Of a stretch of 64,000 nt of DNA, positions 17,439 to 64,000 are shown in pieces. The notes beneath the pieces are model-generated. The model was not told the origin of the DNA. It searched no databases and saw nothing but the letters and a program-made list of their open reading frames with translations. How positions within the stretch are numbered: position 1 is the first letter of the stretch; every line of letters begins with the position of its first letter. The DNA is taken from the NCBI RefSeq assembly GCF_017348835.2, contig NZ_CP071375.1; one strand, given 5' to 3'. The position numbers and the translations under genes are program-made. Source of the DNA: Escherichia coli. Lineage in GTDB: Bacteria > Pseudomonadota > Gammaproteobacteria > Enterobacterales > Enterobacteriaceae.

Positions 17439-17450
17439 AGGTCGCCGCCC
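17439..17450 (-). other. Lambda-type cosN cohesive-end sequence (GGGCGGCGACCT on minus strand) with lambda right-end-like flank
   Basis: Exact 12-mer; flanks resemble lambda left and right ends as recalled. Confidence 0.75.
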
Positions 17451-54045: not shown

Positions 54046-54456
54046 TGTCCTTCTCCTGCAAGAGAATTATTTTAATTTTCGCTTAATTCAGCGAAACCAA
54101 AGTAAAGTGGTCAAGCCCCGCGCTTAGCGCAAGCTTTGGCAGAAGAAAGGACTAAAGCGCGTTGCGCCAGTGCTGCTCACCTACGAGCAAGATAGTGGAT
54201 GAGGTACGAAGATGGGTAAATGTAGAAAATAACGTCCTGAACAAATTGTCCATAATATTACAATTATCCGCAGTGTTGCTTCTCGTCATCGCGGATGATA
54301 ATTGTCCTCGGTAGTTGAACACGCCTGATTTGTATCATAGCTTAAGAATTAACTCAAAATATTTTCACTTCTTTACCTGAGCGGTTTGATTTTCGTTATG
54401 ATGACGGAGCGAAAAAGACATTATTATTAGCAAAGGAAGAAAAAACGGGGACAAGC

Positions 54457-54621
54457 ATGGCAAAGCCGATCATCACGCTCAATGGCCTAAAAATCGTCAT
54501 TATGTTGGGAATGCTGGTCATTATTCTCTGCGGTATCCGTTTTGCCGCCGAGATCATCGTGCCGTTTATTCTCGCATTATTTATTGCTGTTATATATAAC
54601 TTATTTCACTTAACGCATTGA
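54457..54621 (+). pseudogene. tqsA: tqsA (AI-2 exporter) 5' fragment, truncated after codon 46 by an inserted element
   Basis: [46 protein letters not shown], then 8 unrelated codons and a stop; phage-like DNA follows. Confidence 0.8.
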
Positions 54622-55045
54622 TTTAATTAAATAATTTGCACCACAAAAAGTGCCAAAAATCGCAAAATGACTACACCAGTGACTACACCGTTCGGTGCAC
54701 CGTATGAAACAACGTGGAACAAATAGACACAAGAAATATACAGGCGGATCATCTTTCCAGGGGGAAGCGCACCAATTCATGAGGGGCGTTAATGTCGATA
54801 TGGGGATCCCCACCTACCGGAATTTTTTTCCGGTTAAACGTTAATCAGGCTGGTGGGCTTTACCTGTTCGGTAGGTGTTATGATTATCGTAATACCTTTC
54901 CCCCAATGGGGTAAAAGCATCAACCGTAACGAAAGTCGTTATGGTTGCCACCGATACCCCAAATTTGGGTATCACGAGTAAGCCCCAAAATCTGGGTGTT
55001 ACTCTTACTACCCAAACTACGGGTAGTTTCCGTAGTTTCATGGTC

Positions 55046-55065
55046 GAGTTGCAGATCTGCAACTC
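55046..55065. repeat. 20 bp perfect palindrome (gagttgcagatctgcaactc) within a repeat-rich stretch
   Basis: Read directly; neighbouring CCCAAA(N)GGGT-type repeats at 54957-55030. Confidence 0.6.
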
Positions 55066-55319
55066 CCCCATTAACCACAGGCGAATTTCCGCCTTCGGTC
55101 ATTCCTTAATCATCTGCGTAATCATAATGATTATTCAGCAAGCGCAATTTTGCGCTTTGCTTAAAGTTCAGCGAGTTACCGCGCCGACTTCCTCAAATTG
55201 AGGTTTCCGAAAATATCAGCGGGTTAGCGATTAAGCTGACCATTAATTAAACTGCGAAAATGTCGTAGTTGTGAGGGGTGTAGCCAACCCATTTTTGGGC
55301 CGTCGGGAATATCAACCAG

Positions 55320-55601
55320 TTACCGCCGCAACCGCTCCGGCTTCTTCCAGTGGTACGTTATTTTCTCCTTCTCCCGATACATCTCCACGCGGCGACGGTA
55401 GGCCAGCAACTCAAGAACTCTGGTTCGTATGTTGCGCATATCCACGGCATTAAGTTCTATACCATCACGGCGCATCACCTCCGCAACAACACGCGCATAA
55501 TTTTCAGCGGTCACGCTGTCCGGCTGCATGGCCTGTTCGTCAACCTGCTGGCTGATTCCGGCAACGCGGCGGATTAATCCCAGTATTTCGGCTTCTATCA
55601 T
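55320..55601 (-). CDS. Hypothetical protein (93 aa)
   Basis: ORF only. Confidence 0.3.
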   Translation of the reverse strand: MIEAEILGLIRRVAGISQQVDEQAMQPDSVTAENYARVVAEVMRRDGIELNAVDMRNIRTRVLELLAYRRRVEMYREKEKITYHWKKPERLRR

Positions 55602-55665
55602 TGTGCCCCCATCGTTCTGAAAGTCTGGTGTCGTCGGGTCCTTCCTGGAATTATGGCCCGTTACG

Positions 55666-55677
55666 GGGCGGCGACCT
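55666..55677 (+). other. Lambda-type cosN sequence GGGCGGCGACCT (plus orientation) with lambda-like cosB-type flank
   Basis: Exact 12-mer; downstream flank resembles the lambda left end as recalled (TTTATGAAAATTTT..., AAAAGAAACGACA). Confidence 0.7.
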
Positions 55678-55856
55678 CGCGGTTTTTATCTGTTTATGAA
55701 AATTTTTCTGGAAAAAGCATGTCGGTACTTCTCGAACATAACTATTTGTTTTTAAATAGATACACAATAAAAAGAAACGACACGGTAATCATCTAAAATG
55801 GCGATTTATGACGCTTTCATGTCGTTTCTCAGTTTTGTTCAATAATTGCGCGTCTG

Positions 55857-56369
55857 TTACTCGCCTTTCTTCTGTAGCAACTTTTCCGGTACGTTTCCGG
55901 TTGTTTCTTTCAAGTAATCAGCCAGTATCTGTGGGAGGTTGTCGGCAACTCTGGCACTGGCATTACAGGCTTTAACCACTTCCCTTTTAAGCCTATCCAG
56001 CATGGCGTGGGTAATCTGTGGGAAGCTCCTTTGCATAGTAAGCGGGAGGCTGTCCATGATTGATGAAATCTGACTCGCCAGCTTTGAAAGCGCGTACAGG
56101 CAAAACTCAGTATCAATCACGTCACCGCGATCGCGCTCGTTTTTAAGTTCCTGCGCCTCCGCCTGTGCTGTCAGTAATCTGATCCTGACTCGTAAGAGTT
56201 CATCATCATCAATATCGCCTTTGTCGTTTGTAAGCTGGCTAATTGCATTGTTAACCCTATTGTCTATCACGCTGGCAACATCGTAAAACGCCTCACGGCC
56301 TTTACGTTCAACGGGAGTCACTCCCCACTTGTCGAACGCTGTCGCACTTACACGGCAGCTTTTCGCCAT
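55857..56369 (-). CDS. Small-terminase (Nu1)-like protein with diverged N-terminal DNA-recognition region
   Basis: 170 aa; central/C-terminal region closely resembles NohA at 16716-17261 (LTAQAEAQELKNERD...); N-terminal ~45 aa diverged and shortened. Confidence 0.7.
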   Translation of the reverse strand: MAKSCRVSATAFDKWGVTPVERKGREAFYDVASVIDNRVNNAISQLTNDKGDIDDDELLRVRIRLLTAQAEAQELKNERDRGDVIDTEFCLYALSKLASQISSIMDSLPLTMQRSFPQITHAMLDRLKREVVKACNASARVADNLPQILADYLKETTGNVPEKLLQKKGE

Positions 56370-56399
56370 GTTTTTTTGTTCATCAGGTGCGATTTCATT

Positions 56400-56437
56400 A
56401 ATACACCAACTTAATTACTGCTTCAGGTTGGTGTATT
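56400..56437. repeat. 11 bp inverted repeat (AATACACCAAC N16 GTTGGTGTATT) between cos and the terS-like start
   Basis: Read directly; lies in the terS-like leader. Confidence 0.55.
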
Positions 56438-56531
56438 GTTTGCATCTTTCCCTTTTCATTCATAAAGATAGAGCAAACAACAAAACCACCACCACCCCCC
56501 TGAAAAGGCTCATAAATAGCGAAAAACCGCG

Positions 56532-56543
56532 AGGTCGCCGCCC
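56532..56543 (-). other. Second lambda-type cosN sequence (minus orientation), about 165 bp upstream of the terS-like gene
   Basis: Exact 12-mer AGGTCGCCGCCC on the plus strand; inverted relative to 55666-55677. Confidence 0.7.
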
Positions 56544-56604
56544 CGTAACGGGTCCATATGCCGGAAAGGTCCCGTAAAAAAAGCCGGATTTCTCCGGCCT
56601 TGTC

Positions 56605-57018
56605 TCAGATGGTTTTCAGTATGCGATCGATGTCGCCGTCATCGCCCTGGTTTCTGCCATCGTATGCCATGCCAGCTGATACGGCTTGCGGGCTGTGCAT
56701 GTCCATAAAGTTTTCAAAGGCTGCGGTAAGCTCTGGTGCAACCTTTGGGCGCTCCTGCTCTATGGTCATGTTCAGGATTTCACGAGCATTATCGACGCTA
56801 ATACATGGCACGTTTGCCATTGCACGTAACAGCGGCTGATAGTCTTTATGCTCATGAAGCGCCATAATCGCATCAGCGCGCGGCTTGTCCTGCTCTTCCA
56901 GTTTGTTTAGTTGATATACGGCCTCATAGGTTGATAAACCTCTGTCAGCCATTGCCCGCGCTTCGGCTTTAAATTTACTCGCCAGCGGTAGCGTCATGAT
57001 GCTTTCATTCGTTGCCAT
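56605..57018 (-). CDS. Hypothetical head-module protein (137 aa)
   Basis: ORF between the gpD-like and terS-like genes; no recognisable motif. Confidence 0.3.
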   Translation of the reverse strand: MATNESIMTLPLASKFKAEARAMADRGLSTYEAVYQLNKLEEQDKPRADAIMALHEHKDYQPLLRAMANVPCISVDNAREILNMTIEQERPKVAPELTAAFENFMDMHSPQAVSAGMAYDGRNQGDDGDIDRILKTI

Positions 57019-57030
57019 CGTTCCCCCTGC

Positions 57031-57430
57031 TTATCGGGCCAGCGGCTGAACGGATACGCCGGAACCCGCAAAGGCGGCGCATTTTTTCGCATCGGTGTCG
57101 ACGCTCTCAGGCCAGTTAACGGCGGCAATATTGAATATCCCCGTCTTGTAACACTGTGCTGATTTCTGCTTTGACGTGTCCACAGGATACGAAGTCAGAT
57201 AAACAGCCTTGCCAGATTCCTGACCATCCCACGGCTTAAACTCGCCATTGTCCGCCAGCATCAGCGGGGTAAATTCCTGAATAACGCCAGCATCAGCGGG
57301 GTAAATTCCTGAATAACGCCAGCATCAGCGGGGTAAATTCCTGAATAACGCCAGCATCAGCGGCAAAATGTACCAGCGTCGTGGCGACCTGCTGACTGCC
57401 TGCAAATAACTCAATGTATGGAGTGTCCAT
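57031..57430 (-). pseudogene. Lambda gpD-like head decoration gene disrupted by a 64 bp tandem duplication
   Basis: 5' part (MDTPYIELFAG...TPLML) and 3' part (ADNGEFKPWDG...YKTGIF...AFAG) resemble lambda gpD; frame is restored by removing two 32 bp repeat copies. Confidence 0.65.
57254..57363. repeat. Tandem repeat: 32 bp unit (gccagcatcagcggggtaaattcctgaataac) x3 plus a 14 bp partial copy
   Basis: Perfect copies at 57254-57285, 57286-57317, 57318-57349; partial at 57350-57363. Confidence 0.9.
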
Positions 57431-57441
57431 AGAATCCCCCG

Positions 57442-58497
57442 TTAAGCAATTTTGACAGTAACAAATTTGCGAATATCTGCCGGAACCGGCTGCGGTGCGC
57501 TGTGCGTCTGCACGTACTCAATCGCCGGATCTCCGTCCTCAATCCAGTTTTTCGGGTAGTACATGTTTTGCGTTGCCCCCGTTCTTACTGCGTCCTGATC
57601 CATAATCGCACCATAGGCCACCAGCCCTTTATTGTTGGTGTTGCCCAGGACAAGCAAATCAGGCTCAAGGAAATATTTTTCTGTGCCGTCGCTGTCAGTG
57701 TATTTGCCGGAATAGACGATAAGGGCCAGATCACCAAGATAGCCTTTAAAGCTCACCACTTCGCCCAGGTTTTTACATGCCAGCTCTGCGGCGGATTCTG
57801 AACCACGGGAGAGATCGTACAGTTCACGGAATTTTTTAAAGCTGCGTAACATGCGCCATACATCAACGCCCATAATCATGACGTTGGCGGGGCAACCTGC
57901 CTGATCTGCGTATAGTTCAATGTCATATATTGGGTCGTGTATGTCTTTATCCTGCTCAGACCATTTTTTACCGTCGGCCTGCTCTATGATGTTTTTTTCC
58001 GGTATCTTCCAGTCGATTTCATAGCGTTCTATGCCTTCGCCCTCAATGATGTTTTTTCCGGTCGTTACCGCATTCACCGCCAGCCATTCAACGTGTGCCT
58101 TAATGGCGTTTATCTGGCGGCGCATGTTGCCAGTAATCAGGCGCATACGGCGGTAGGTAGGATCGTTAAGCTGTGCCGGATCTTCTCCAGCCATGCGCAT
58201 TATTGTTTTTAATGGATCGATTTCGTGTTTTGGCTTCATGTAGCCAGGGCGGATAATGCTGGTTTCGTACCCTTTATCGCGCTGAACCTGGCTGCCAACC
58301 ATAGGCGAACAAAACGCCGACATAGTGACTTCTTCAATATCCAGGTTATCTAACATGATGTCCTGCGTGTTGAATGTCGCCACGTTCGGGAAAAACAGCG
58401 CGGTAAACAGCGGACTAAATTTAAATTCCGCAATATCCTCGCGATTCAGGTACGCGAAAAGCTGGTGTGTGTTAAGTGCTATTGCTTTGACTGCCAT
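57442..58497 (-). CDS. Major capsid protein, lambda gpE homologue
   Basis: 351 aa; shared blocks KFxPLF..LFF, PGYxKPKHE, DPxYRR, SxKGxxGDxAIVVYSG, YPKNW..GDPA, SAP with lambda gpE as recalled. Confidence 0.8.
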   Translation of the reverse strand: MAVKAIALNTHQLFAYLNREDIAEFKFSPLFTALFFPNVATFNTQDIMLDNLDIEEVTMSAFCSPMVGSQVQRDKGYETSIIRPGYMKPKHEIDPLKTIMRMAGEDPAQLNDPTYRRMRLITGNMRRQINAIKAHVEWLAVNAVTTGKNIIEGEGIERYEIDWKIPEKNIIEQADGKKWSEQDKDIHDPIYDIELYADQAGCPANVMIMGVDVWRMLRSFKKFRELYDLSRGSESAAELACKNLGEVVSFKGYLGDLALIVYSGKYTDSDGTEKYFLEPDLLVLGNTNNKGLVAYGAIMDQDAVRTGATQNMYYPKNWIEDGDPAIEYVQTHSAPQPVPADIRKFVTVKIA

Positions 58498-58736
58498 TAT
58501 TCGCCCCCATAATTTTTGTGCATCCCAAGCGCCGCAAGTAAATAAGATCGCACAAGTGAACCTATCGACGGCTCCGGCGTCATCAGCGGATCCAGTCCAG
58601 CCGCAACGCCAGCTTCATAGTTTTTTTTGTGGCGCTGCTTGAGCACCTCCACGATTTCGGGGCTTATGTACACCGAAACACCGCCTTTTTTCTCTTCAGC
58701 CATAGTAAGAAATTCCTCTTCGACTAAAAAAATCAT
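58497..58736 (-). CDS. Hypothetical protein
   Basis: ORF only; start may be an internal Met (MAEEKK). Confidence 0.3.
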   Translation of the reverse strand: MIFLVEEEFLTMAEEKKGGVSVYISPEIVEVLKQRHKKNYEAGVAAGLDPLMTPEPSIGSLVRSYLLAALGMHKNYGGE

Positions 58737-58954
58737 AACTGGATGTTTATCCAGTCCTGATTATAATCAGAATTGCATTTTATGCAATGATATTGAGTTA
58801 TGTTGCAAATTATGAAATGATTATCCCGATCACGAACGCCAGTGCATCCAAAAACCTCATATGCAAAAGCCCGATAAGAACCCTCTGACCTTATCGGGCT
58901 TTTTTTGGGCGCAAAAAAGCCGGATTGCTCCGGCTATGTGTGCTGTGTGCTGGC

Positions 58955-59179
58955 TCAGTCTCTGATCTCTTTCAGAAATTCTATCAATGCATCTATCTGT
59001 TCAGGATTTACCGCCAGCATTTCACCGGATAGAGCACATCTCACAAAACCATGCTGATCCTTTTCAATCAGTGCGCCCGTCTCCAGGAATGCGCGGTAAT
59101 CATTGATGCTCATCGTCTCCATGTTGTCAGCATGGTATTTATCACGCTGTTTTAATATCTCATCAAATTTCATCGGCAT
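58955..59179 (-). CDS. Hypothetical protein (74 aa)
   Basis: ORF only. Confidence 0.3.
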   Translation of the reverse strand: MPMKFDEILKQRDKYHADNMETMSINDYRAFLETGALIEKDQHGFVRCALSGEMLAVNPEQIDALIEFLKEIRD

Positions 59180-59305
59180 TGTTTTTTTCCTCTGTTGTGT
59201 CTGTTTGTTTCAGATAGTAACTATGCCTGACCGTGACGAAAACCCGGTAATGCGCCATACCGTTTCAACTGGTGCAAAAAAAGCCGTATTTCTCCGGCTG
59301 TTTGA

Positions 59306-59578
59306 TTAGCTGTCCTGGTAATTGCGCCATATTTCATCACCAGCACCATCTATACCCATTTCGGCATAAGTGCGATCGACTGCCTTTTTCAGGTCTCCGA
59401 AATTATCCGGCGGCTCCGGTGCCCTCTGTGCCTTCCTTGAACATTCCAGCCGTCGCATCGTGATGTGATGCCGTTCCTTGTCTGTCTCCACCAGCTGCAT
59501 GACTTCACCCCATCGCGCCGCCGCCCTCCGGTAAAAGCCTTTCGCCTCCAGTTCCTCCGCTATGCGGTCATGTACCAT
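59306..59578 (-). CDS. PerC-family transcriptional activator-like protein (Pch-like)
   Basis: MVHDRIAEELEAKGFYRRAAARWGEVM... resembles the PerC/Pch N-terminal signature from memory; start at the internal Met of the ORF. Confidence 0.6.
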   Translation of the reverse strand: MVHDRIAEELEAKGFYRRAAARWGEVMQLVETDKERHHITMRRLECSRKAQRAPEPPDNFGDLKKAVDRTYAEMGIDGAGDEIWRNYQDS

Positions 59579-59588
59579 CGTCACCCCC

Positions 59589-59999
59589 TCAGAACGAAAT
59601 ATCATCACCGTAAGGGTCATCGCCTCCCGCTGGTGGCTGATTACCCTGTGTGCCTGTGGTTTTGCGTCTGTTCCCGCCAGGAAGTGCCGCACGGGCACTG
59701 ATTACGCTGTCTGCAATAACCTGATAACCCTGCCGCGTTTCCCCATTCTGTCCGGTCCACTGGCTGACCTGCATCGTGCCGGATACGCTGGCAACGTCGC
59801 CTTTTTGATGTTTAGCCAGGAAGTCGGCCTGCTTACCAAATGCGATGACCGATAGCCATAACGTCGCCTGCCCATCCTGCGCCTGACTACATGGCAGCGA
59901 TACCGCCATACGCGCCAGCGTCATCGGTGTACCCTTGCTGGTCTGTTTTACCTGCTGGTCGTCCACCAGCCGCCCGTAAGCCGCTATCTGTGCTGTCAT
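59589..59999 (-). CDS. SSB-like single-stranded DNA-binding protein
   Basis: 136 aa with Gly/Pro-rich tail ending in the acidic DDISF (compare SSB DDIPF). Confidence 0.55.
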   Translation of the reverse strand: MTAQIAAYGRLVDDQQVKQTSKGTPMTLARMAVSLPCSQAQDGQATLWLSVIAFGKQADFLAKHQKGDVASVSGTMQVSQWTGQNGETRQGYQVIADSVISARAALPGGNRRKTTGTQGNQPPAGGDDPYGDDISF

Positions 60000-60304
60000 G
60001 CCGTCTGCTCTCCGGTTTTAACGTTGATGGTTGTTACCTGTTCCGCTTCGGCAATCTCCCGTTCTGTCAACGTGGCAAAGTTTGCCGCTGCTGTGGTCAT
60101 GAATGCGCTTATCAGTTCGGGATGCTCCTTCGCGTATCCTTCCCCCGCGTGGCGGTCTATCGTTCTGATTGCCACCTTTAAAGCCAGTTCAGCCATATCT
60201 AACGCCTTATATTTCGGCTCTGTTCTGTCTCTGCGTTTTTGGGTCATTTCTCGCAACCTCTCACTTTTTCGCCTCACTTTTTCAAGCGTCTCACTTCGTC
60301 GCAA
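59996..60304 (-). CDS. Hypothetical protein
   Basis: ORF overlaps the SSB-like start by 4 bp. Confidence 0.3.
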   Translation of the reverse strand: MRRSETLEKVRRKSERLREMTQKRRDRTEPKYKALDMAELALKVAIRTIDRHAGEGYAKEHPELISAFMTTAAANFATLTEREIAEAEQVTTINVKTGEQTA

Positions 60305-60447
60305 TTGGGATTTTTGGTTTTTCTATGTGTGTGTTTCATAAGTATTTTTTTACCCCTCACTTTTGAGGATGTATACAGGTAAAAAAGTGAGGGAGAGCAG
60401 GCTAATTTTGGCCCTCTTTCTATCCACCTCGCTTTTGCTCCTCACTT

Positions 60448-61854
60448 TTATAGCGGCGCTACATCATCCCCATCGATACGAATAACCCCATCTTTTTCCA
60501 GCTTGTACAGCCAGCGCCGGAAGTTTTTCATTTCATACCCCAGTTTTTTCATGTCATCACGTAACAGCGGGATCGTGCACTTGTCGCCGTTCTGTGTGCG
60601 TGAACGGATGCACCCCCATAGCGCGGTATGGTTTTCCGTCTTGTTCCCTGCCTCCTCGATGCGCTCCAGTTCTGCCGGTTCGCGTGGGATGTCAATCACC
60701 ACCATGGACACGATTTCTTCACCCTCAGGATCCGTAAATACCTCCACGCTCTTAAGGTCGTAGGCACTTTCTTTTGGCTCCTCCGCGTCCTTCATCTTCG
60801 TACATGCTGCAACCAGCGCCGTAGCCTCTGAATGTTCCCGACTGATTCGGAACTCAGCATCAAGCGCCGCACGGAATGCACTGGAACCCCGCGCCCCTTT
60901 CGTCTCATCCTTGCCGGAATGATGCACAACCAGAACCGTGGCCCCCGTGGCCTGCTTTATCGCGTCACACCCCTGGATAAACGCCCCCATGTCGCGGGAG
61001 TCATTTTCATCATGACCACCAAAGCAACGGGCCAGCGTGTCAATGACAATCATCCGCACCCTTTCGCCCGTTCTGTCCTGCACTAATCCGGCGGTCCTGA
61101 TAACCTGTTCCACATAGTCCGGCGATGCGGGGAATACTGGCGAATTGACGATACACAAATCAGTAACCGCCTTACCGTGGGTTATTTCCCATGCCTTAAC
61201 GCGGCGCTTTACGCCCATACTTCCTTCACCAGCAACATAGATAACCGCGCCTTTACACACCCTGCGGCCTCCCCATTTCATTCCAGTGGCAACATGACAC
61301 GCCCACGAAATGGCAAGGAACGACTTATAGGAACCGCTCGCCCCGTAGGTGCTGCATAATGCTTCCGCCGGAATAAGCCCCTTAATCACGTAGCTTTGCT
61401 GCGCGTCGAACCCTTCCGATCCCCATGAAATCGGTAGCGTGATTTTTTGTTTTCCTCCGTTCATGATCAGGCTTTCCCCTCTCTCCCATGTCTCCCGTAG
61501 CCGTGGAAGCTGGTCGGTCCATTTCTCCAGTAATTCGAAGTTTTCAGAAAGCAGCCGCGCTTCATGGACTCCGGCGATCGCCAGTTTTGTCGCTATGGTT
61601 AACAGCTGCGCTTCGTCAATATTTCCGGCGCGTATCACCGTTACCCTGTATCGCCCCTCATCAACAATCTGCAGGTTGTCCAGTTCGCTTAACTGATAAC
61701 GCCCCAGGTAAACGGGAGGCGTGGAGTCTCCCGCCTTTTTGGCCTGTGCAATGATGTAGTGCTCTGCAAATGAGTGCGCATCATTCCCCGCGAAAATAAT
61801 TGCTTCGGTGTGTTTGTCTTTCGGTAATAGTTTTACGTTCGGTGCCAGTTTCAT
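60448..61854 (-). CDS. RecA-fold AAA ATPase (RepA/DnaB-like replication protein)
   Basis: 468 aa; Walker A GASGSYKS; Walker-B-like MIVIDTL; C-terminal wHTH-like region. Confidence 0.7.
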   Translation of the reverse strand: MKLAPNVKLLPKDKHTEAIIFAGNDAHSFAEHYIIAQAKKAGDSTPPVYLGRYQLSELDNLQIVDEGRYRVTVIRAGNIDEAQLLTIATKLAIAGVHEARLLSENFELLEKWTDQLPRLRETWERGESLIMNGGKQKITLPISWGSEGFDAQQSYVIKGLIPAEALCSTYGASGSYKSFLAISWACHVATGMKWGGRRVCKGAVIYVAGEGSMGVKRRVKAWEITHGKAVTDLCIVNSPVFPASPDYVEQVIRTAGLVQDRTGERVRMIVIDTLARCFGGHDENDSRDMGAFIQGCDAIKQATGATVLVVHHSGKDETKGARGSSAFRAALDAEFRISREHSEATALVAACTKMKDAEEPKESAYDLKSVEVFTDPEGEEIVSMVVIDIPREPAELERIEEAGNKTENHTALWGCIRSRTQNGDKCTIPLLRDDMKKLGYEMKNFRRWLYKLEKDGVIRIDGDDVAPL

Positions 61855-62150
61855 TTTTTACCCCTGAATACGTTAAGCATCTTTTTTATTTCCTGAATAT
61901 TGGCGCGTGCTTTCTCCCTGCTGGTTGGAACGTTACGCGGTACAGCCTGCACCAGAGAAAAATCACGGTCGAACTGATAAACAGGCATCACGCAATCATA
62001 TTCGTAGCCTTCACGACGGTAGGTTACGCGCCGTTCCTCCACGCCCTTAATCATTACCGTGCCGCCGTACTGGTCGCGGTAAATATCACCGCGCATGAAT
62101 TTAGTGCGAGTTTTGCCACTGGCAGTTAAGCCAGAATATTTAAGTTTCAT
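61851..62150 (-). CDS. Hypothetical protein (99 aa), translationally coupled to the ATPase gene
   Basis: Stop overlaps the ATPase start (ATGA). Confidence 0.3.
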   Translation of the reverse strand: MKLKYSGLTASGKTRTKFMRGDIYRDQYGGTVMIKGVEERRVTYRREGYEYDCVMPVYQFDRDFSLVQAVPRNVPTSREKARANIQEIKKMLNVFRGKK

Positions 62151-62155
62151 TATTT

Positions 62156-62389
62156 TTATTCTCCGGTGTGCTGTTCTTTATATCTGTCGTGCAATAGATC
62201 TATTTCTTGCAGTTCCATTATTACATGCTCAAGAATCGTTATTAATGCCGTGGCAATTCTTGATTTTTGTTTGTCGCGTTCATTGTCGCCAAGTGTTTCA
62301 AGCCATATGCGCAATATTTCCAGCATGTTTTCACTGTGAGAAAGTGCAAGAAATGCGCGGTCTATTGTTTCGAGGTAAATATCACGCAT
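62156..62389 (-). CDS. Hypothetical small helical protein (77 aa)
   Basis: ORF; starts MRDI. Confidence 0.3.
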   Translation of the reverse strand: MRDIYLETIDRAFLALSHSENMLEILRIWLETLGDNERDKQKSRIATALITILEHVIMELQEIDLLHDRYKEQHTGE

Positions 62390-62390
62390 A

Positions 62391-62612
62391 TTAATCCCCG
62401 TCCGTTGTTTTTCTTAAAATAACTTCTGTCACGAAATCAGCATAGTTAGCGGCAATATCAAGAATATTTAGCCCTGTATCTCTGTGCTCATCAGTGCAAA
62501 GAAAGAAAAAAGCCACCCGCATAATTTCAGATATTGACGAAAGCGCATCAGCCGCATCATCAGGAACGCCGGAAAATTCTTGTTTCAGGGAATTAAAACG
62601 ATCATCACGCAT
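62391..62612 (-). CDS. Hypothetical small protein (73 aa from MRDD)
   Basis: ORF; possible paralogue of neighbours. Confidence 0.3.
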   Translation of the reverse strand: MRDDRFNSLKQEFSGVPDDAADALSSISEIMRVAFFFLCTDEHRDTGLNILDIAANYADFVTEVILRKTTDGD

Positions 62613-62877
62613 AACCCCCCCCATTTTCATAATCTGCAACAAGAATATTTTTAGCGTCATTCAGCGACCGCGTGGCGGTGTATCGGATACATTCCAGGGC
62701 GAACAATGTGTATTCCTCCCGTTCTTCCTTTTGTGCAAGCTCTGCCGTGCATTCAATATCAATAAGCGCGTGCATCAGCGTAGTGAGTGCGGCTGCGTCC
62801 GGACGGATGTTATTGCACATGGTGTACCCCTCCGCATTTTTTTTCGTTAGAAATAAGCGTTCTTCTTTCCTGTTCAT
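62605..62877 (-). CDS. Hypothetical small protein
   Basis: ORF; start uncertain. Confidence 0.25.
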   Translation of the reverse strand: MNRKEERLFLTKKNAEGYTMCNNIRPDAAALTTLMHALIDIECTAELAQKEEREEYTLFALECIRYTATRSLNDAKNILVADYENGGGYA

Positions 62878-63043
62878 CGCTCAGGAATACGCAGACCTCA
62901 CCGCTAAGGCGTTTAAGTAAGCCGATGATTGCCCCTGATTCGCTGTCGGTCATCATGCCAGGGTAATCCTCTGCCAGTGCGCAAATAACTTCGATTTGGT
63001 GGGCGCGTTCTGCTGCCTGTTGTAGTGTGATTTCCTGGCTCAT
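62810..63043 (-). CDS. Hypothetical small protein (77 aa from MSQEIT), first gene of the leftward operon
   Basis: ORF. Confidence 0.3.
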   Translation of the reverse strand: MSQEITLQQAAERAHQIEVICALAEDYPGMMTDSESGAIIGLLKRLSGEVCVFLSDEQERRTLISNEKKCGGVHHVQ

Positions 63044-63327
63044 AAGCCTACCCCCTGGCGAATACGGGCGGCGAATACAGCAACACAACCTGACGGGCAA
63101 CGGTTACGCGCTTCGCGTTCCGTCCAGGCGGTTACGTGGATTATTTGAGATTCTCCGGCACTCAGTGCCAGAAAACGCCACACAAAGGCCGTTTGTGTGT
63201 GTACAAGGTGTGGTATATGATTTACAGCAACCATAACGGCTCCTAGTTTACGTTGTTGGTTAGAAGCCCTGCGAGTGGTAACGACACTTGCGGGGCTTTG
63301 TCTTTTCATCGATTACCTTGATAAAGG

Positions 63328-63407
63328 TGTCAGCCACTATATTAGTAACGGGTGTCAGCCACGTCAATAGTGTTTTTCCGTTTTCTTGTGTGTATACTGT
63401 CAGCCAC
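63328..63407 (+). promoter_or_regulatory. Three direct repeats of TGTCAGCCAC with a TATACT -10-like hexamer: candidate operator/promoter
   Basis: Repeats at 63328-63337, 63353-63362 and 63398-63407; TATACT at 63392-63397. Confidence 0.55.
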
Positions 63408-63428
63408 CTAATAACGAGGAAATCAGAT

Positions 63429-63608
63429 ATGGCAACAAAAGCAGTTAATGCAAAATCCAAAAAGCTTGAGGCTCGAGTACCACACGCAATAGCTGATGCT
63501 GTAGAAAATTTAAAGGAAGATGGCGAAAGTACAGGGCAATTTATCGTTTCGGCACTTGAAGGCGAGATCAAACGCCGCCAGCGCCGCAAGGCCAAAGAAT
63601 CAGAATAA
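63429..63608 (+). CDS. Small basic DNA-binding-like protein (possible ribbon-helix-helix regulator)
   Basis: 59 aa from MATKAVNAKSKKLEARVPHAIADAVENLKEDGE... Confidence 0.45.
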   Translation: MATKAVNAKSKKLEARVPHAIADAVENLKEDGESTGQFIVSALEGEIKRRQRRKAKESE

Positions 63609-63650
63609 TCACTATCAGCGCCGTGGTGTGAGGTATTACGGCGCATTGCT

Positions 63651-63839
63651 ATGCAGGACAACACAATGACCGATAAAGAATTGACCAAAACATTATCACC
63701 GGCACGGAAAAGACGGCGCAGAAAGATAGAACATGAATCAGAAAGATTCGCGCCATGTGCTTTTGCCCTTGAGCAATTCCTTAAAGAGTACAGGGAAAAG
63801 CGCTCATTGCAGGTATGGCAACGAACTGAACCAGACTGA
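63651..63839 (+). CDS. Hypothetical small basic protein
   Basis: ORF with RRRRK stretch. Confidence 0.3.
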   Translation: MQDNTMTDKELTKTLSPARKRRRRKIEHESERFAPCAFALEQFLKEYREKRSLQVWQRTEPD

Positions 63840-63935
63840 TTGCATTGCCCACCAGCCTGATAGCGGCTATCATCCCCGTGCTTATGTTTGGGATCACACA
63901 CACAAACGGCGCAGCGGGTTATCTGTTCAGAAAGG

Positions 63936-63962
63936 CGGCTCCATTTCGGGGCCGCTTTTTTT
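63936..63962 (+). terminator. Rho-independent terminator
   Basis: cggctcc atttc ggggccg stem followed by T7. Confidence 0.55.
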
Positions 63963-64000
63963 ATGCCTGAAAAACCCCAATTTTGTGGTTTTCCAGTCTC

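What the first reader, a model, noticed from the sequence alone, without database searches (positions are those of the whole stretch)
54940..55075. Cluster of palindromes and degenerate repeats near the element end
A perfect 12 bp palindrome CCCAAATTTGGG (54957-54968), related units (ccccaaaatctgggt, acccaaactacgggtagtttccgtagtttc) and a perfect 20 bp palindrome (55046-55065) lie between the tqsA junction and the cos region. The density is beyond chance and could mark an att arm, a replication origin or a structured RNA.
Basis: seen in the sequence. Interest (0 to 1): 0.4.

Follow-up and report, generated by a model that had tools for sequence, protein, structure and literature searches.

The report
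Conserved hairpin cassette in satellite tail
The palindromes are real and form a roughly 123-base non-coding cassette, undescribed so far as I could find, that many E. coli phage satellites (PICIs) carry after their last gene; it is not the attachment arm or the replication origin, is probably a structured RNA at the end of the satellite's transcript, and its function is untested.

Summary
The 20-bp perfect palindrome is at 55046-55065. The 12-bp palindrome is at 54958-54969, one base off. The related ACCC-N7-GGGT units are present, and the region folds far better than shuffles (z about -7 on either strand).

The cluster is a discrete unit, window 54948-55070. It occurs in 705 of 5,426 complete E. 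coli genomes. It always lies in the non-coding tail of PICI satellites, downstream of the last operon gene (a 93-aa ORF) and in one orientation. It is found with any capsid, replicase or integration module. It is more conserved (95%) than the neighbouring ORF (87%; third codon positions 79%). It is optional: related islands at the same attachment site lack it.

The att arm lies within about 110 bp of the tqsA junction (core, IHF consensus, arm repeats). Probable origin iterons sit beside the rep gene. Rfam, the phage records and the literature searches returned nothing.

Best reading (confidence about 0.35): a stack of stem-loops in the operon's 3' UTR that insulates or stabilises the transcript. 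No covariation supports this within the unit itself. A DNA protein-binding array and a functionless recombination cassette remain live rivals.

The parts
54948..55070 (.). The conserved unit (about 123 bp): four palindromes or stem-loops H1-H4. This is the block shared by E. coli PICI tails.
   Evidence: The blast boundaries are sharp: query positions 359-481 and 9-131. It is found in 705 of 5,426 genomes.
54953..54973 (.). H1: GATACCC-loop7-GGGTATC.
   Evidence: The arms are kept while the centre varies (CAAATTT, TTTATTT, AAAATAT, TGTATTT, TAATATT). H1 is missing in the L025 and L094 variants.
54976..55004 (.). H2: GAGTAA/TTACTC outer stem around CCCA-AAATC-TGGG.
   Evidence: Fold. Pair counts show only one-sided changes (G-C to A.C in 12 of 34 variants; T-A to T.G in 10 of 34).
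55009..55038 (.). H3 region: overlapping, mutually exclusive pairings TACCC/GGGTA, AAACTAC/GTAGTTT and AAACTACGG/CCGTAGTTT. It includes the 9-nt direct repeat GTAGTTTCC GTAGTTTC.
   Evidence: Variants that lack one 9-nt copy still keep AAACTAC-NN-GTAGTTT.
55046..55065 (.). H4: the perfect 20-bp palindrome (8-bp arms, centre GATC).
   Evidence: In a sample not selected on this palindrome, the centre varies (GATC, AATC, AATT) and the arms are kept.
55079..55105 (.). Companion hairpin AGGCGAATTTCCGCCT plus TCGGTCATTCC. Together with the unit it makes the 156-bp segment (54950-55105) that is absent from unit-less tails.
   Evidence: Alignment of the window against L073 and L077 and sequence of L072. 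In the commonest layout the homologous hairpin lies on the other side of the unit and scores as a - strand terminator.
54900..54946 (.). Flanking module with two hairpins: CCCCCAATGGGG and AACCGTAACGA-AAG-TCGTTATGGTT.
   Evidence: I2. It is shared with tails that lack the unit.
55137..55325 (.). Three copies of a repeat of about 48 bp: a small hairpin NNNNN-AATTTT-NNNNN followed by AATATCAGCGGGTTAGCG-like sequence. The last copy overlaps the ORF stop codon and matches the IHF consensus (55310-55322).
   Evidence: (D1, D3).
55286..55301 (-). Small post-stop hairpin (hpS class): GGCCCA-AAAA-UGGGUU on the - strand.
   Evidence: In the commonest layout the homologous hairpin has compensatory changes at 4 of its 7 pairs (alignment).
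55320..55601 (-). The 93-aa ORF, the last gene of the PICI operon. Function unknown (PHROG 1561; no Pfam match).
   Evidence: It lies upstream of the unit in 67 of 68 unit-bearing loci.
54585..54593 (.). att core TGCTGTTAT at the tqsA junction. The second copy would be at about window coordinate 66077, outside the window.
54611..54623 (-). IHF consensus AATCAATGCGTTA in the att arm.
54668..54691 (+). Probable arm-type integrase sites, TGACTACACC x2.
   Evidence: The same 22-mer lies next to int at the other end of the element. A related pair sits at the clpS-site islands.
54638..54653 (-). Terminator-like hairpin plus T-rich tail on the operon strand, downstream of the unit and just inside the att arm.
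55666..55677 (+). Lambda-type cosN. It is not part of the unit and is given for orientation.

Best explanation
Shown: the cluster is a discrete, optional, strongly conserved non-coding cassette. It spans window 54948-55070, or 54950-55105 with its companion hairpin. It sits in the hairpin-dense 3' tail of E. coli phage-inducible chromosomal islands (PICIs). It lies after the last gene of an operon that is transcribed almost entirely in one direction.

Inferred: the cassette is transcribed on the - strand as part of the operon's 3' untranslated region. The reasons are that it always follows the last ORF in one orientation, and that the only terminator-like sites on that strand lie beyond it.

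Proposed mechanism, inferred and not tested: its four very stable stem-loops, with the other hairpins of the tail, act at the RNA level. They would block 3'-to-5' exonucleases and help stop or insulate transcription leaving the island. That transcription would otherwise run into host genes when the island is integrated. When the island is excised and circular, it would run across attP into int. Because the hairpins are palindromic, they could work against transcription from either side.

The unit's sequence is conserved, not only its pairing, and this includes the unpaired linker GTGTTACTCTTACTA. A sequence-specific partner is therefore likely in addition, either a protein or a base-pairing RNA. 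One possibility is that the unit is released as a 3'-UTR-derived small RNA.
For: Context. The element is a PICI inserted in tqsA. It carries a Nu1-like Rpp gene, lambda D- and E-like capsid genes and an AAA_25 RepA-type helicase (PGAP: helicase RepA family), and has cos sites. All of its genes but one small ORF are on the - strand.

Distribution. The unit is in 705 of 5,426 E. coli genomes, at 1-6 copies each.

Position. In 67 of 68 unit-bearing loci the 93-aa ORF lies upstream on the opposite strand. In the commonest layout its stop codon is 39-47 bp from the unit. In that layout a terminator-like site on the - strand (11 pairs followed by TACTTATTGT) follows the unit 27 nt later. In the window a - strand terminator-like site lies further on, at 54653-54638.

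Stability. z is -7.4 for the unit and -8.4 for the whole tail on the - strand.

A neighbouring hairpin is structurally selected. The post-stop hairpin has compensatory changes at 4 of 7 pairs, and 2 of the 11 sequences have a G.U pair at one of them on the - strand.

Sequence conservation. The unit is 95% identical on average, against 86.6% for the adjacent ORF and 78.7% for its third codon positions. The same ordering holds for the most divergent lineage (82-86% against 74-78%) and, in most pairs compared, against the adjacent non-coding flank.

Independence from other modules. The unit occurs with cf-PICI HK97-type, lambda E-type and ClpP-capsid-fusion modules, and with four replicase types.

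Host-gene geometry. Host genes lie co-oriented just beyond the tail at the clpS, thiM and hpt sites. This makes insulation a plausible need.
Against: None of the 39 pairs in the four stems shows a compensatory change. All variation is one-sided.

Strand inference from wobble pairs is ambiguous. In the common lineages, 4 of 5 frequent transitions favour the - strand. In the divergent lineage H4 carries G.T pairs that favour the + strand.

None of the unit's hairpins is followed by a T or U run, so none is a canonical intrinsic terminator.

The order of the unit and its companion hairpin differs between layouts. No single RNA architecture is therefore conserved.

The unit is dispensable: 14 of 20 tails found through the ORF lack it.

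No transcript data were available. No Rfam family matches.
Confidence: 0.35

Rival explanations
1. DNA-level array of protein-binding sites. Three operator-like palindromes (TACCC-N7-GGGTA, its degenerate middle copy, TACCC-N7-GGGTA) start 27 bp apart. They are followed by GTAGTTT repeats and the 20-bp palindrome. Dimeric DNA-binding proteins of the island, the helper phage or the host would bind them, for example as a roadblock, an architectural element or a decoy.
For: Arms are conserved and centres are variable in H1, H3 and H4, as expected for half-sites with spacers. There is no compensatory change anywhere, and sequence is conserved even in unpaired linkers. TACCC-N7-GGGTA occurs only here in 64 kb. 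The GTTGCA half-sites of the 20-bp palindrome resemble CytR-type octamers; this is from memory and was not tested.
Against: No promoter-like site lies in or beside the unit. The motifs occur nowhere else in the island, so no regulon is visible. No island gene co-occurs with the unit, since it is present or absent at the same att site and is found with different capsid, replicase and packaging modules. The surrounding 700 bp holds a dozen unrelated palindromes. That fits generic hairpins better than many different binding proteins.
Confidence: 0.2
2. A cassette with no function of its own. On this view it is a MITE-like or recombination-shuffled module that spread recently among PICI tails. Its uniformity would reflect recent spread or gene conversion rather than selection.
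For: The boundaries are discrete and the cassette is present or absent between otherwise homologous tails. There are up to 6 copies per genome. Two copies in one tail flank other material. It is an imperfect 72-nt self-complement of about ERIC size. The tails are visibly mosaics of reshuffled modules. It was found only in E. coli, with no exact 18-mer in 100,044 species-representative genomes. The short inverted ends ACCGA...TCGGT are seen only in the window's layout.
Against: It is never seen outside PICI tails and always has the same orientation relative to the last gene, unlike a transposing MITE. No convincing target-site duplication was found. It remains better conserved than the ORF even in the oldest split, the L069 lineage. 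It is also usually better conserved than its own non-coding flanks.
Confidence: 0.2
3. Part of the attachment-site arm (integrase, Xis or IHF binding).
For: It is near the element end. Palindromes and repeats are typical of att arms.
Against: The core, an IHF consensus and arm-type repeats all lie within about 110 bp of the junction, and the arm repeats recur at the int end. The unit is 350-480 bp from the core. It has no copy at the int end. It is found at five or more different att sites: tqsA, clpS, thiM, hpt, phoQ and prophage late genes. Islands at the same site lack it.
Confidence: 0.03
4. Replication origin of the element.
For: It has repeats and palindromes. In one relative (L034) two units flank iteron-like AACCCGCAA repeats and an AT-rich stretch.
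Against: [quoted passage not shown] Three spaced direct repeats sit there in this element, at 60265-60449. The unit has no AT-rich core. It is shared by islands with unrelated replicases and is optional.
Confidence: 0.02

Closest known systems
ERIC / IRU elements of enterobacteria (imperfect palindromes of about 127 bp in transcribed intergenic regions)
   Same: Similar size. The unit is an imperfect self-complementary sequence (positions 16-87 match their own reverse complement). It lies in non-coding regions that are probably transcribed, after genes. It shows presence/absence polymorphism and several copies per genome.
   Different: From memory, there is no sequence resemblance to ERIC. The unit is confined to PICI tails in one fixed orientation rather than scattered through the chromosome. 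It was found only in E. coli.
REP/BIME elements, including the IHF-binding RIP type
   Same: Hairpins at the ends of operons combined with an IHF consensus. The tail's ~48-bp repeats pair a small hairpin with WATCAANNNNTTR-like sequence. The proposed roles are also the same: mRNA 3' protection and termination.
   Different: The sequences are unrelated. The unit is far longer and far more sequence-constrained than a REP hairpin.
Lambda sib/tI retroregulation hairpin next to att
   Same: A structured RNA encoded beside the attachment site. Its relation to int changes between the integrated and the excised form.
   Different: sib lies 3' of int and destabilises int mRNA. Here the tail lies at the far end of the operon and comes to lie 5' of int only after circularisation. 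No RNase III evidence exists.
3'-UTR-derived small RNAs of enterobacteria (CpxQ and SroC type)
   Same: A conserved block between a stop codon and the operon's terminator, preceded by a structurally selected hairpin.
   Different: No transcript or processing data exist. The terminator does not directly follow the unit in the window's layout.
PICI cos sites (cosQ-cosN-cosB recognised by Rpp-TerS; Fillol-Salom 2018/2019, Murialdo and Feiss 2022)
   Same: Both are cis-acting non-coding sites near the same end of the same elements.
   Different: cosN is separate, at 55666-55677 and 56532-56543. The unit contains no cosN-like sequence. It is shared with cf-PICIs that use an HK97/HNH-type packaging module.

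Membership tests
att arm of a tyrosine-integrase element | Arm-type sites repeated in both arms, close to the core, with IHF sites | tested here: not met
   These features exist but elsewhere: the core at 54585-54593, IHF at 54611-54623, and TGACTACACC x2 at 54668-54691 and again beside int. No unit motif occurs at the int end.
att arm of a tyrosine-integrase element | Co-occurrence with one integrase/att type and necessity at that site | tested here: not met
   The unit is found at tqsA, clpS, thiM, hpt, phoQ and prophage-embedded sites. It is absent from islands at the same tqsA and clpS sites.
PICI replication origin | [quoted passage not shown] | tested here: not met
   The unit is 5.2 kb from rep and has no AT-rich core. 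Three spaced direct repeats lie at 60265-60449, next to rep.
PICI replication origin | Specificity for the cognate initiator | tested here: not met
   The same unit occurs with AAA_25/RepA, DUF927, DNA-primase-family and primase-like proteins.
Any curated RNA family (Rfam 15) | Covariance-model match | tested here: not met
   No match at E<=1 over 54300-56000, nor in the tails of L003, L034, L072 and L069. No tRNA or tmRNA was found.
Structured RNA (generic) | Thermodynamic stability beyond composition | tested here: met
   z is -6.8 and -7.4 for the unit, and -8.1 and -8.4 for the tail.
Structured RNA (generic) | Compensatory base-pair changes | tested here: not met
   None of the 39 pairs in the unit shows a change on both sides among 34 distinct variants. 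The adjacent post-stop hairpin does meet this feature, at 4 of its 7 pairs.
Structured RNA (generic) | Evidence of transcription and a defined strand | not testable with these tools
   Only position and orientation relative to the operon and to predicted terminators are available. Wobble-pair asymmetry is ambiguous.
Intrinsic (Rho-independent) terminator | G+C-rich hairpin followed by a U run | tested here: not met
   No hairpin of the unit has a T-rich tail on either strand, and the scan finds none inside it. The companion hairpin qualifies only in the other layout.
MITE / ERIC-like mobile repeat | Terminal inverted repeats, target-site duplication and dispersed insertion sites | tested here: inconclusive
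   There is a clean 156-bp presence/absence difference. However, the only inverted ends are 5 bp (ACCGA/TCGGT), there is no clear duplication, and every copy examined is in a PICI tail in the same orientation.
Small protein-coding gene | Conserved start, open frame and substitutions concentrated at third codon positions | tested here: not met
   ORFs cross the unit on both strands, and PGAP calls one in a few genomes. The starts differ between layouts. By my reading of the variant positions against both frames, the common substitutions are not concentrated at third positions.
cos site | cosN core GGGCGGCGACCT with flanking cosQ and cosB | tested here: not met
   The exact cosN copies are at 55666-55677 and 56532-56543, not in the unit.

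The most novel reading that the evidence does not exclude
The unit is a previously unrecognised RNA gene carried as optional cargo in satellite tails. One possibility is a small RNA or protein-sponge RNA of about 120-200 nt, cut from the 3' UTR of the PICI late operon. Its invariant unpaired stretch (GUGUUACUCUUACUA or its complement) would act in trans on helper-phage or host transcripts or proteins. That would give the satellites that carry it an edge in the satellite-helper-host conflict.
Probability: 0.15. Interest if true: 0.7.

Novelty: new member of a known kind. Interest (0 to 1): 0.42.

Why it matters
PICIs and capsid-forming PICIs are among the most abundant phage satellites of E. 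coli. Their genes have been dissected in detail, but in the PICI papers I searched their non-coding tails are not discussed.

This unit is present in about one in eight complete E. coli genomes, including O157:H7, O26, O111, O103, O121 and ST131. It is better conserved than the protein-coding gene beside it, yet it is unannotated.

If it controls where island transcription ends, it would bear on two things. One is how induced satellites avoid disturbing host genes such as clpSA or thiMD. The other is how int expression is coupled to excision.

If it is a trans-acting RNA or a protein-binding site, it would be a new player in satellite-helper interplay. Either way it is a convenient sequence marker for this class of islands.

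Tried and rejected
Known RNA families. Rfam scans of the window tail and of four related tails found nothing relevant. ARAGORN found no tRNA-like gene.

Phage homology. blastn of the unit against 50,697 phage records gave no match.

Other species. A peptide-pattern scan for the 93-aa ORF in 100,044 species-representative genomes found no relative. An exact 18-mer of the palindrome found one match, in an uncultured Porphyromonadaceae MAG, which I did not examine and take to be chance. No deep comparative data could therefore be obtained.

Literature. The full-text library was searched for six sequence strings from the unit, in DNA and RNA spelling and on both strands, with no paper found. The PICI papers I searched for cos, origin, terminator and non-coding terms do not mention the element.

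Promoters. Neither the tool scan nor my looser scan found a convincing sigma-70 promoter in the unit. An extended -10-like TGTTATGAT at 54876-54884, left of the unit, exists only in the window's layout. I did not build on it.

Base-pairing targets. No complementarity of 10 nt or more exists between the unit and the rest of the island.

Other sites considered by eye and dropped as unconvincing: an Xer/dif-like site, an integron attC, a Tus ter site and a PurR box.

The 93-aa protein. It has no Pfam match, belongs to a PHROG of unknown function, and has no PDB relative. The AlphaFold model is of low confidence (pLDDT 66, three helices), so no fold search was run.

Chi sites. They are enriched in the island (6 in 9.4 kb against 11 in 54.6 kb of host DNA), and one abuts the unit in the commonest layout. 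None lies inside the unit, so this was not pursued.

Full report
**1. What is in the sequence**

The perfect 20-bp palindrome GAGTTGCAGATCTGCAACTC is at 55046-55065. CCCAAATTTGGG is at 54958-54969, one base to the right of the stated position. The two related units are at 54983-54997 and 55010-55039.

- Twelve-base perfect palindromes are at chance level in this window (19 observed, 17.5 in simulations).
- A palindrome of 20 bp or more is expected about 0.13 times per 64 kb.
- TACCC-N7-GGGTA occurs only twice in 64 kb, both times here, 54 bp apart, with a degenerate copy midway.
- The 136 nt fold far better than shuffled controls on both strands: z -6.8 and -7.4, with 0 of 200 shuffles as good.
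- The whole 723-nt non-coding stretch from the tqsA junction to the first ORF is just as unusual, z -8.4 and -8.1.

The cluster is thus the densest part of a larger hairpin-rich tail.

**2. Where it sits**

The window is 99.99% identical to E. coli PE164. tqsA is interrupted at the core TGCTGTTAT (54585-54593), and the second core copy would be at about 66077, beyond the window. The inserted 11.5-kb element is a phage-inducible chromosomal island (PICI).

Its genes include:
- a Nu1-like Rpp/TerS gene (55857-56369);
- a lambda D-like gene and a lambda E-like capsid gene;
- SSB and PerC genes;
- an AAA_25 RepA-type helicase gene (60448-61854);
- int at the far end.

All genes but one small ORF are on the - strand. 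Exact lambda cosN lies at 55666-55677 and, inverted, at 56532-56543. This recalls the two cos sites published for EcCICFT073 (PMC6092414, PMC6739421). The last gene of the operon is a 93-aa ORF (55320-55601, - strand; PHROG 1561, function unknown). The finding lies in the tail between that ORF and the attachment site.

**3. The cluster is a discrete, widespread unit**

Megablast of the tail against 5,426 complete E. coli genomes shows that different parts have different distributions. Query positions 359-481 (window 54948-55070) recur on their own at 94-96% identity.

Searched alone, the unit is in 705 genomes, at 1-6 copies each, with the same sharp boundaries. Nothing is annotated there in most records.

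Inspection of hits shows it at the int-distal end of PICIs of quite different make-up:
- the capsid-forming EcCIEDL933-type island of O157:H7, also in tqsA, with an HK97-type head module, HNH, a P27-family TerS and TerL;
- islands beside clpS with lambda-type or ClpP-capsid-fusion modules;
- islands at thiM, hpt and phoQ;
- islands embedded in prophage late genes, the configuration described in PMC10111431.

Replicases differ among them: AAA_25, DUF927, DNA-primase family and primase-like.

The unit has no match in 50,697 phage records and none in Rfam. Its 18-mer core gave one match, not examined and taken as chance, in 100,044 species-representative genomes. None of the six sequence strings from the unit that I searched appears in the paper library.

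**4. Relation to the last gene, and optionality**

Among 68 unit-bearing loci, mostly IMG/VR contigs found through the palindrome, 67 have the 93-aa ORF upstream on the opposite strand. In the commonest layout the stop codon is 39-47 bp from the unit. Elsewhere, inserted repeats stretch the gap to 150-790 bp. In the one exception, the unit follows the Rpp gene directly. Orientation is invariant.

The converse does not hold. Of 20 loci found through the ORF, only 6 carry the unit. Islands at the same tqsA or clpS site exist with and without it.

Alignment shows that, relative to unit-less tails, the window has an extra 156 bp (54950-55105). This is the unit plus the hairpin AGGCGAATTTCCGCCT, lying between GGTTGCC and TTAATCATCTGCG.

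The tails are mosaics of reshuffled short modules. The companion hairpin lies on the other side of the unit in the common layout. Some tails have two units. Partial units also occur.

**5. Conservation**

Across 56 loci, mean pairwise identity is 95.0% for the unit, 86.6% for the adjacent ORF and 78.7% for its third codon positions.

That sample was selected on the palindrome. A second sample, selected on a different 16-mer, shows the same arms with variable centres (GATC, AATC, AATT).

For the most divergent lineage (L069 type, present in 41 genomes at 99% identity or more) the unit is still ahead of the ORF, 82-86% against 74-78%. It is usually also ahead of its own non-coding flank.

The most invariant block is CCCAAAATCTGGGTGTTACTCTTACTACCCAAACTAC...GAGTTGCA, which includes a predicted unpaired linker.

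This argues for constraint on sequence. Gene conversion among tails cannot be excluded.

**6. RNA or DNA?**

Mapping the four-hairpin fold onto 34 distinct variants gives no compensatory change at any of 39 pairs. Variation is one-sided: 52 G.T cells, tolerated on the + strand, against 58 A.C cells, tolerated on the - strand.

In the common lineages 4 of 5 frequent transitions would be G.U on the - strand. In the divergent lineage H4 has G.T pairs on the + strand. The strand is therefore not settled.

In H1, H3 and H4 the arms are kept and the centres vary. This suits either hairpins or dimer-binding palindromes.

By contrast, the small hairpin just after the stop codon shows clear covariation at 4 of its 7 pairs. 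Examples are A-U to G-C, C-G to U-A, and G.U in the - sense. At least part of the tail is therefore under selection for pairing on the operon strand.

In the commonest layout the only terminator-like site on that strand follows the unit 27 nt later. It has 11 pairs, 8 of them G-C, and the tail TACTTATTGT. In the window a - strand terminator-like site lies at 54653-54638.

No promoter-like site lies in or next to the unit. The unit shares no more than 9 nt with the rest of the island. ORFs that cross the unit have inconsistent starts. By my reading of the variant positions against both frames, they also show no third-position bias.

**7.

- **att arm: not supported.** The arm is accounted for by the core, an IHF consensus at 54611-54623 and TGACTACACC x2 at 54668-54691. 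The identical pair lies beside int at the other end. The unit is 350-480 bp away, is absent from the int end, occurs at many att sites, and is optional at a given site.
- **Origin: not supported.** Published Gram-negative PICI origins lie immediately 3' of rep. Three spaced direct repeats sit there, at 60265-60449. The unit is also indifferent to replicase type.
- **Structured RNA: the most likely of the three, but unproven.**

**8. Best explanation and rivals**

I favour, at about 0.35, a cis-acting RNA role. The unit would be transcribed as part of the operon's 3' UTR. With the other tail hairpins, its four stable stem-loops would protect the transcript's 3' end and help confine transcription.

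Such transcription would otherwise enter co-oriented host genes (clpSA, thiMD, hpt). After circularisation, it would cross attP into int.

The strict sequence conservation suggests a specific partner as well, possibly through release as a 3'-derived small RNA.

| Rival | Confidence |
|---|---|
| Double-stranded DNA array of protein-binding palindromes | 0.2 |
| Functionless MITE-like or recombination cassette | 0.2 |
| att arm | 0.03 |
| Replication origin | 0.02 |

None of the first three readings (the RNA model and the two leading rivals) can be excluded without transcript mapping and a deletion.

**9. Verdict**

This is a real, non-random and evolutionarily conserved feature. I found no prior description of it in the databases and papers searched. 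It is a new family-level non-coding element of a familiar general kind: a hairpin cassette at the end of an operon.

It is moderately interesting. It is common and strongly conserved in important E. coli lineages and is easy to test. However, it is optional for the island, narrowly distributed, and has no demonstrated function.

Noticed in passing
window 60265-60449: Three direct repeats of about 17 nt (TTTTNCNCCTCACTTTT) spaced 83-85 bp apart, immediately downstream of the AAA_25 rep gene. This is the position where published PICI origins lie, so they are probably the island's origin iterons.
   Followed up: partly
window 55666-55677 (+) and 56532-56543 (-): Two exact lambda cosN cores in inverted orientation flank the Nu1-like rpp gene. 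This recalls cos1 and cos2 of EcCICFT073.
   Followed up: partly
window 17439-17450 (-): A third exact GGGCGGCGACCT lies far outside the island. It is presumably the cos of a resident lambdoid prophage that could serve as helper.
   Followed up: no
window 54585-54691: Anatomy of the att arm: the core TGCTGTTAT, the IHF consensus AATCAATGCGTTA, and the arm-type repeats TGACTACACC x2. The repeats recur beside int at the other end of the element (L143 11676-11699).
   Followed up: yes
window 55137-55325: Three copies of a repeat of about 48 bp. Each has a small hairpin with an A/T loop plus AATATCAGCGGGTTAGCG-like sequence. The last copy overlaps the ORF stop codon and is a perfect IHF consensus (55310-55322). 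They look like serial duplications of the ORF's 3' end plus its hairpin.
   Followed up: partly
L003 6125-6164 and homologues; window 55286-55301: The small hairpin 17-19 nt after the stop codon of the 93-aa ORF shows compensatory changes at 4 of 7 pairs. In the common layout it is followed at once by a Chi sequence (GCTGGTGG on the - strand).
   Followed up: partly
window 54596-64000: There are six Chi sites in 9.4 kb of island, against 11 in 54.6 kb of host DNA, roughly a threefold enrichment. This may be relevant to protecting linear or rolling-circle island DNA from RecBCD.
   Followed up: no
window 55857-56369 and 57031-57261: The Nu1-like (Rpp) gene and the head-decoration gene of this copy are shorter than in relatives (170 aa against 180; 76 aa against 111). 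PGAP flags them as frameshifted in strain PE164, so this island copy may be defective.
   Followed up: partly
L034 941-1502: A capsid-forming PICI next to hpt has two units 435 bp apart. Between them are iteron-like AACCCGCAA repeats and an AT-rich stretch resembling an origin. L010, L026 and L059 are similar.
   Followed up: no
L004, L069, L093: Here the island tail containing the unit abuts truncated prophage terminase or capsid genes. This is the helper-embedded PICI configuration. In L069 an abortive-infection gene sits in the tail beyond the unit.
   Followed up: partly
L071 4998-5042: Only the last part of the unit (the 3' end of H3 plus H4) occurs downstream of a Q-antiterminator gene in a different integrative element at yicC. 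It is followed by the module that precedes the unit in the window, which shows that the modules are shuffled.
   Followed up: no
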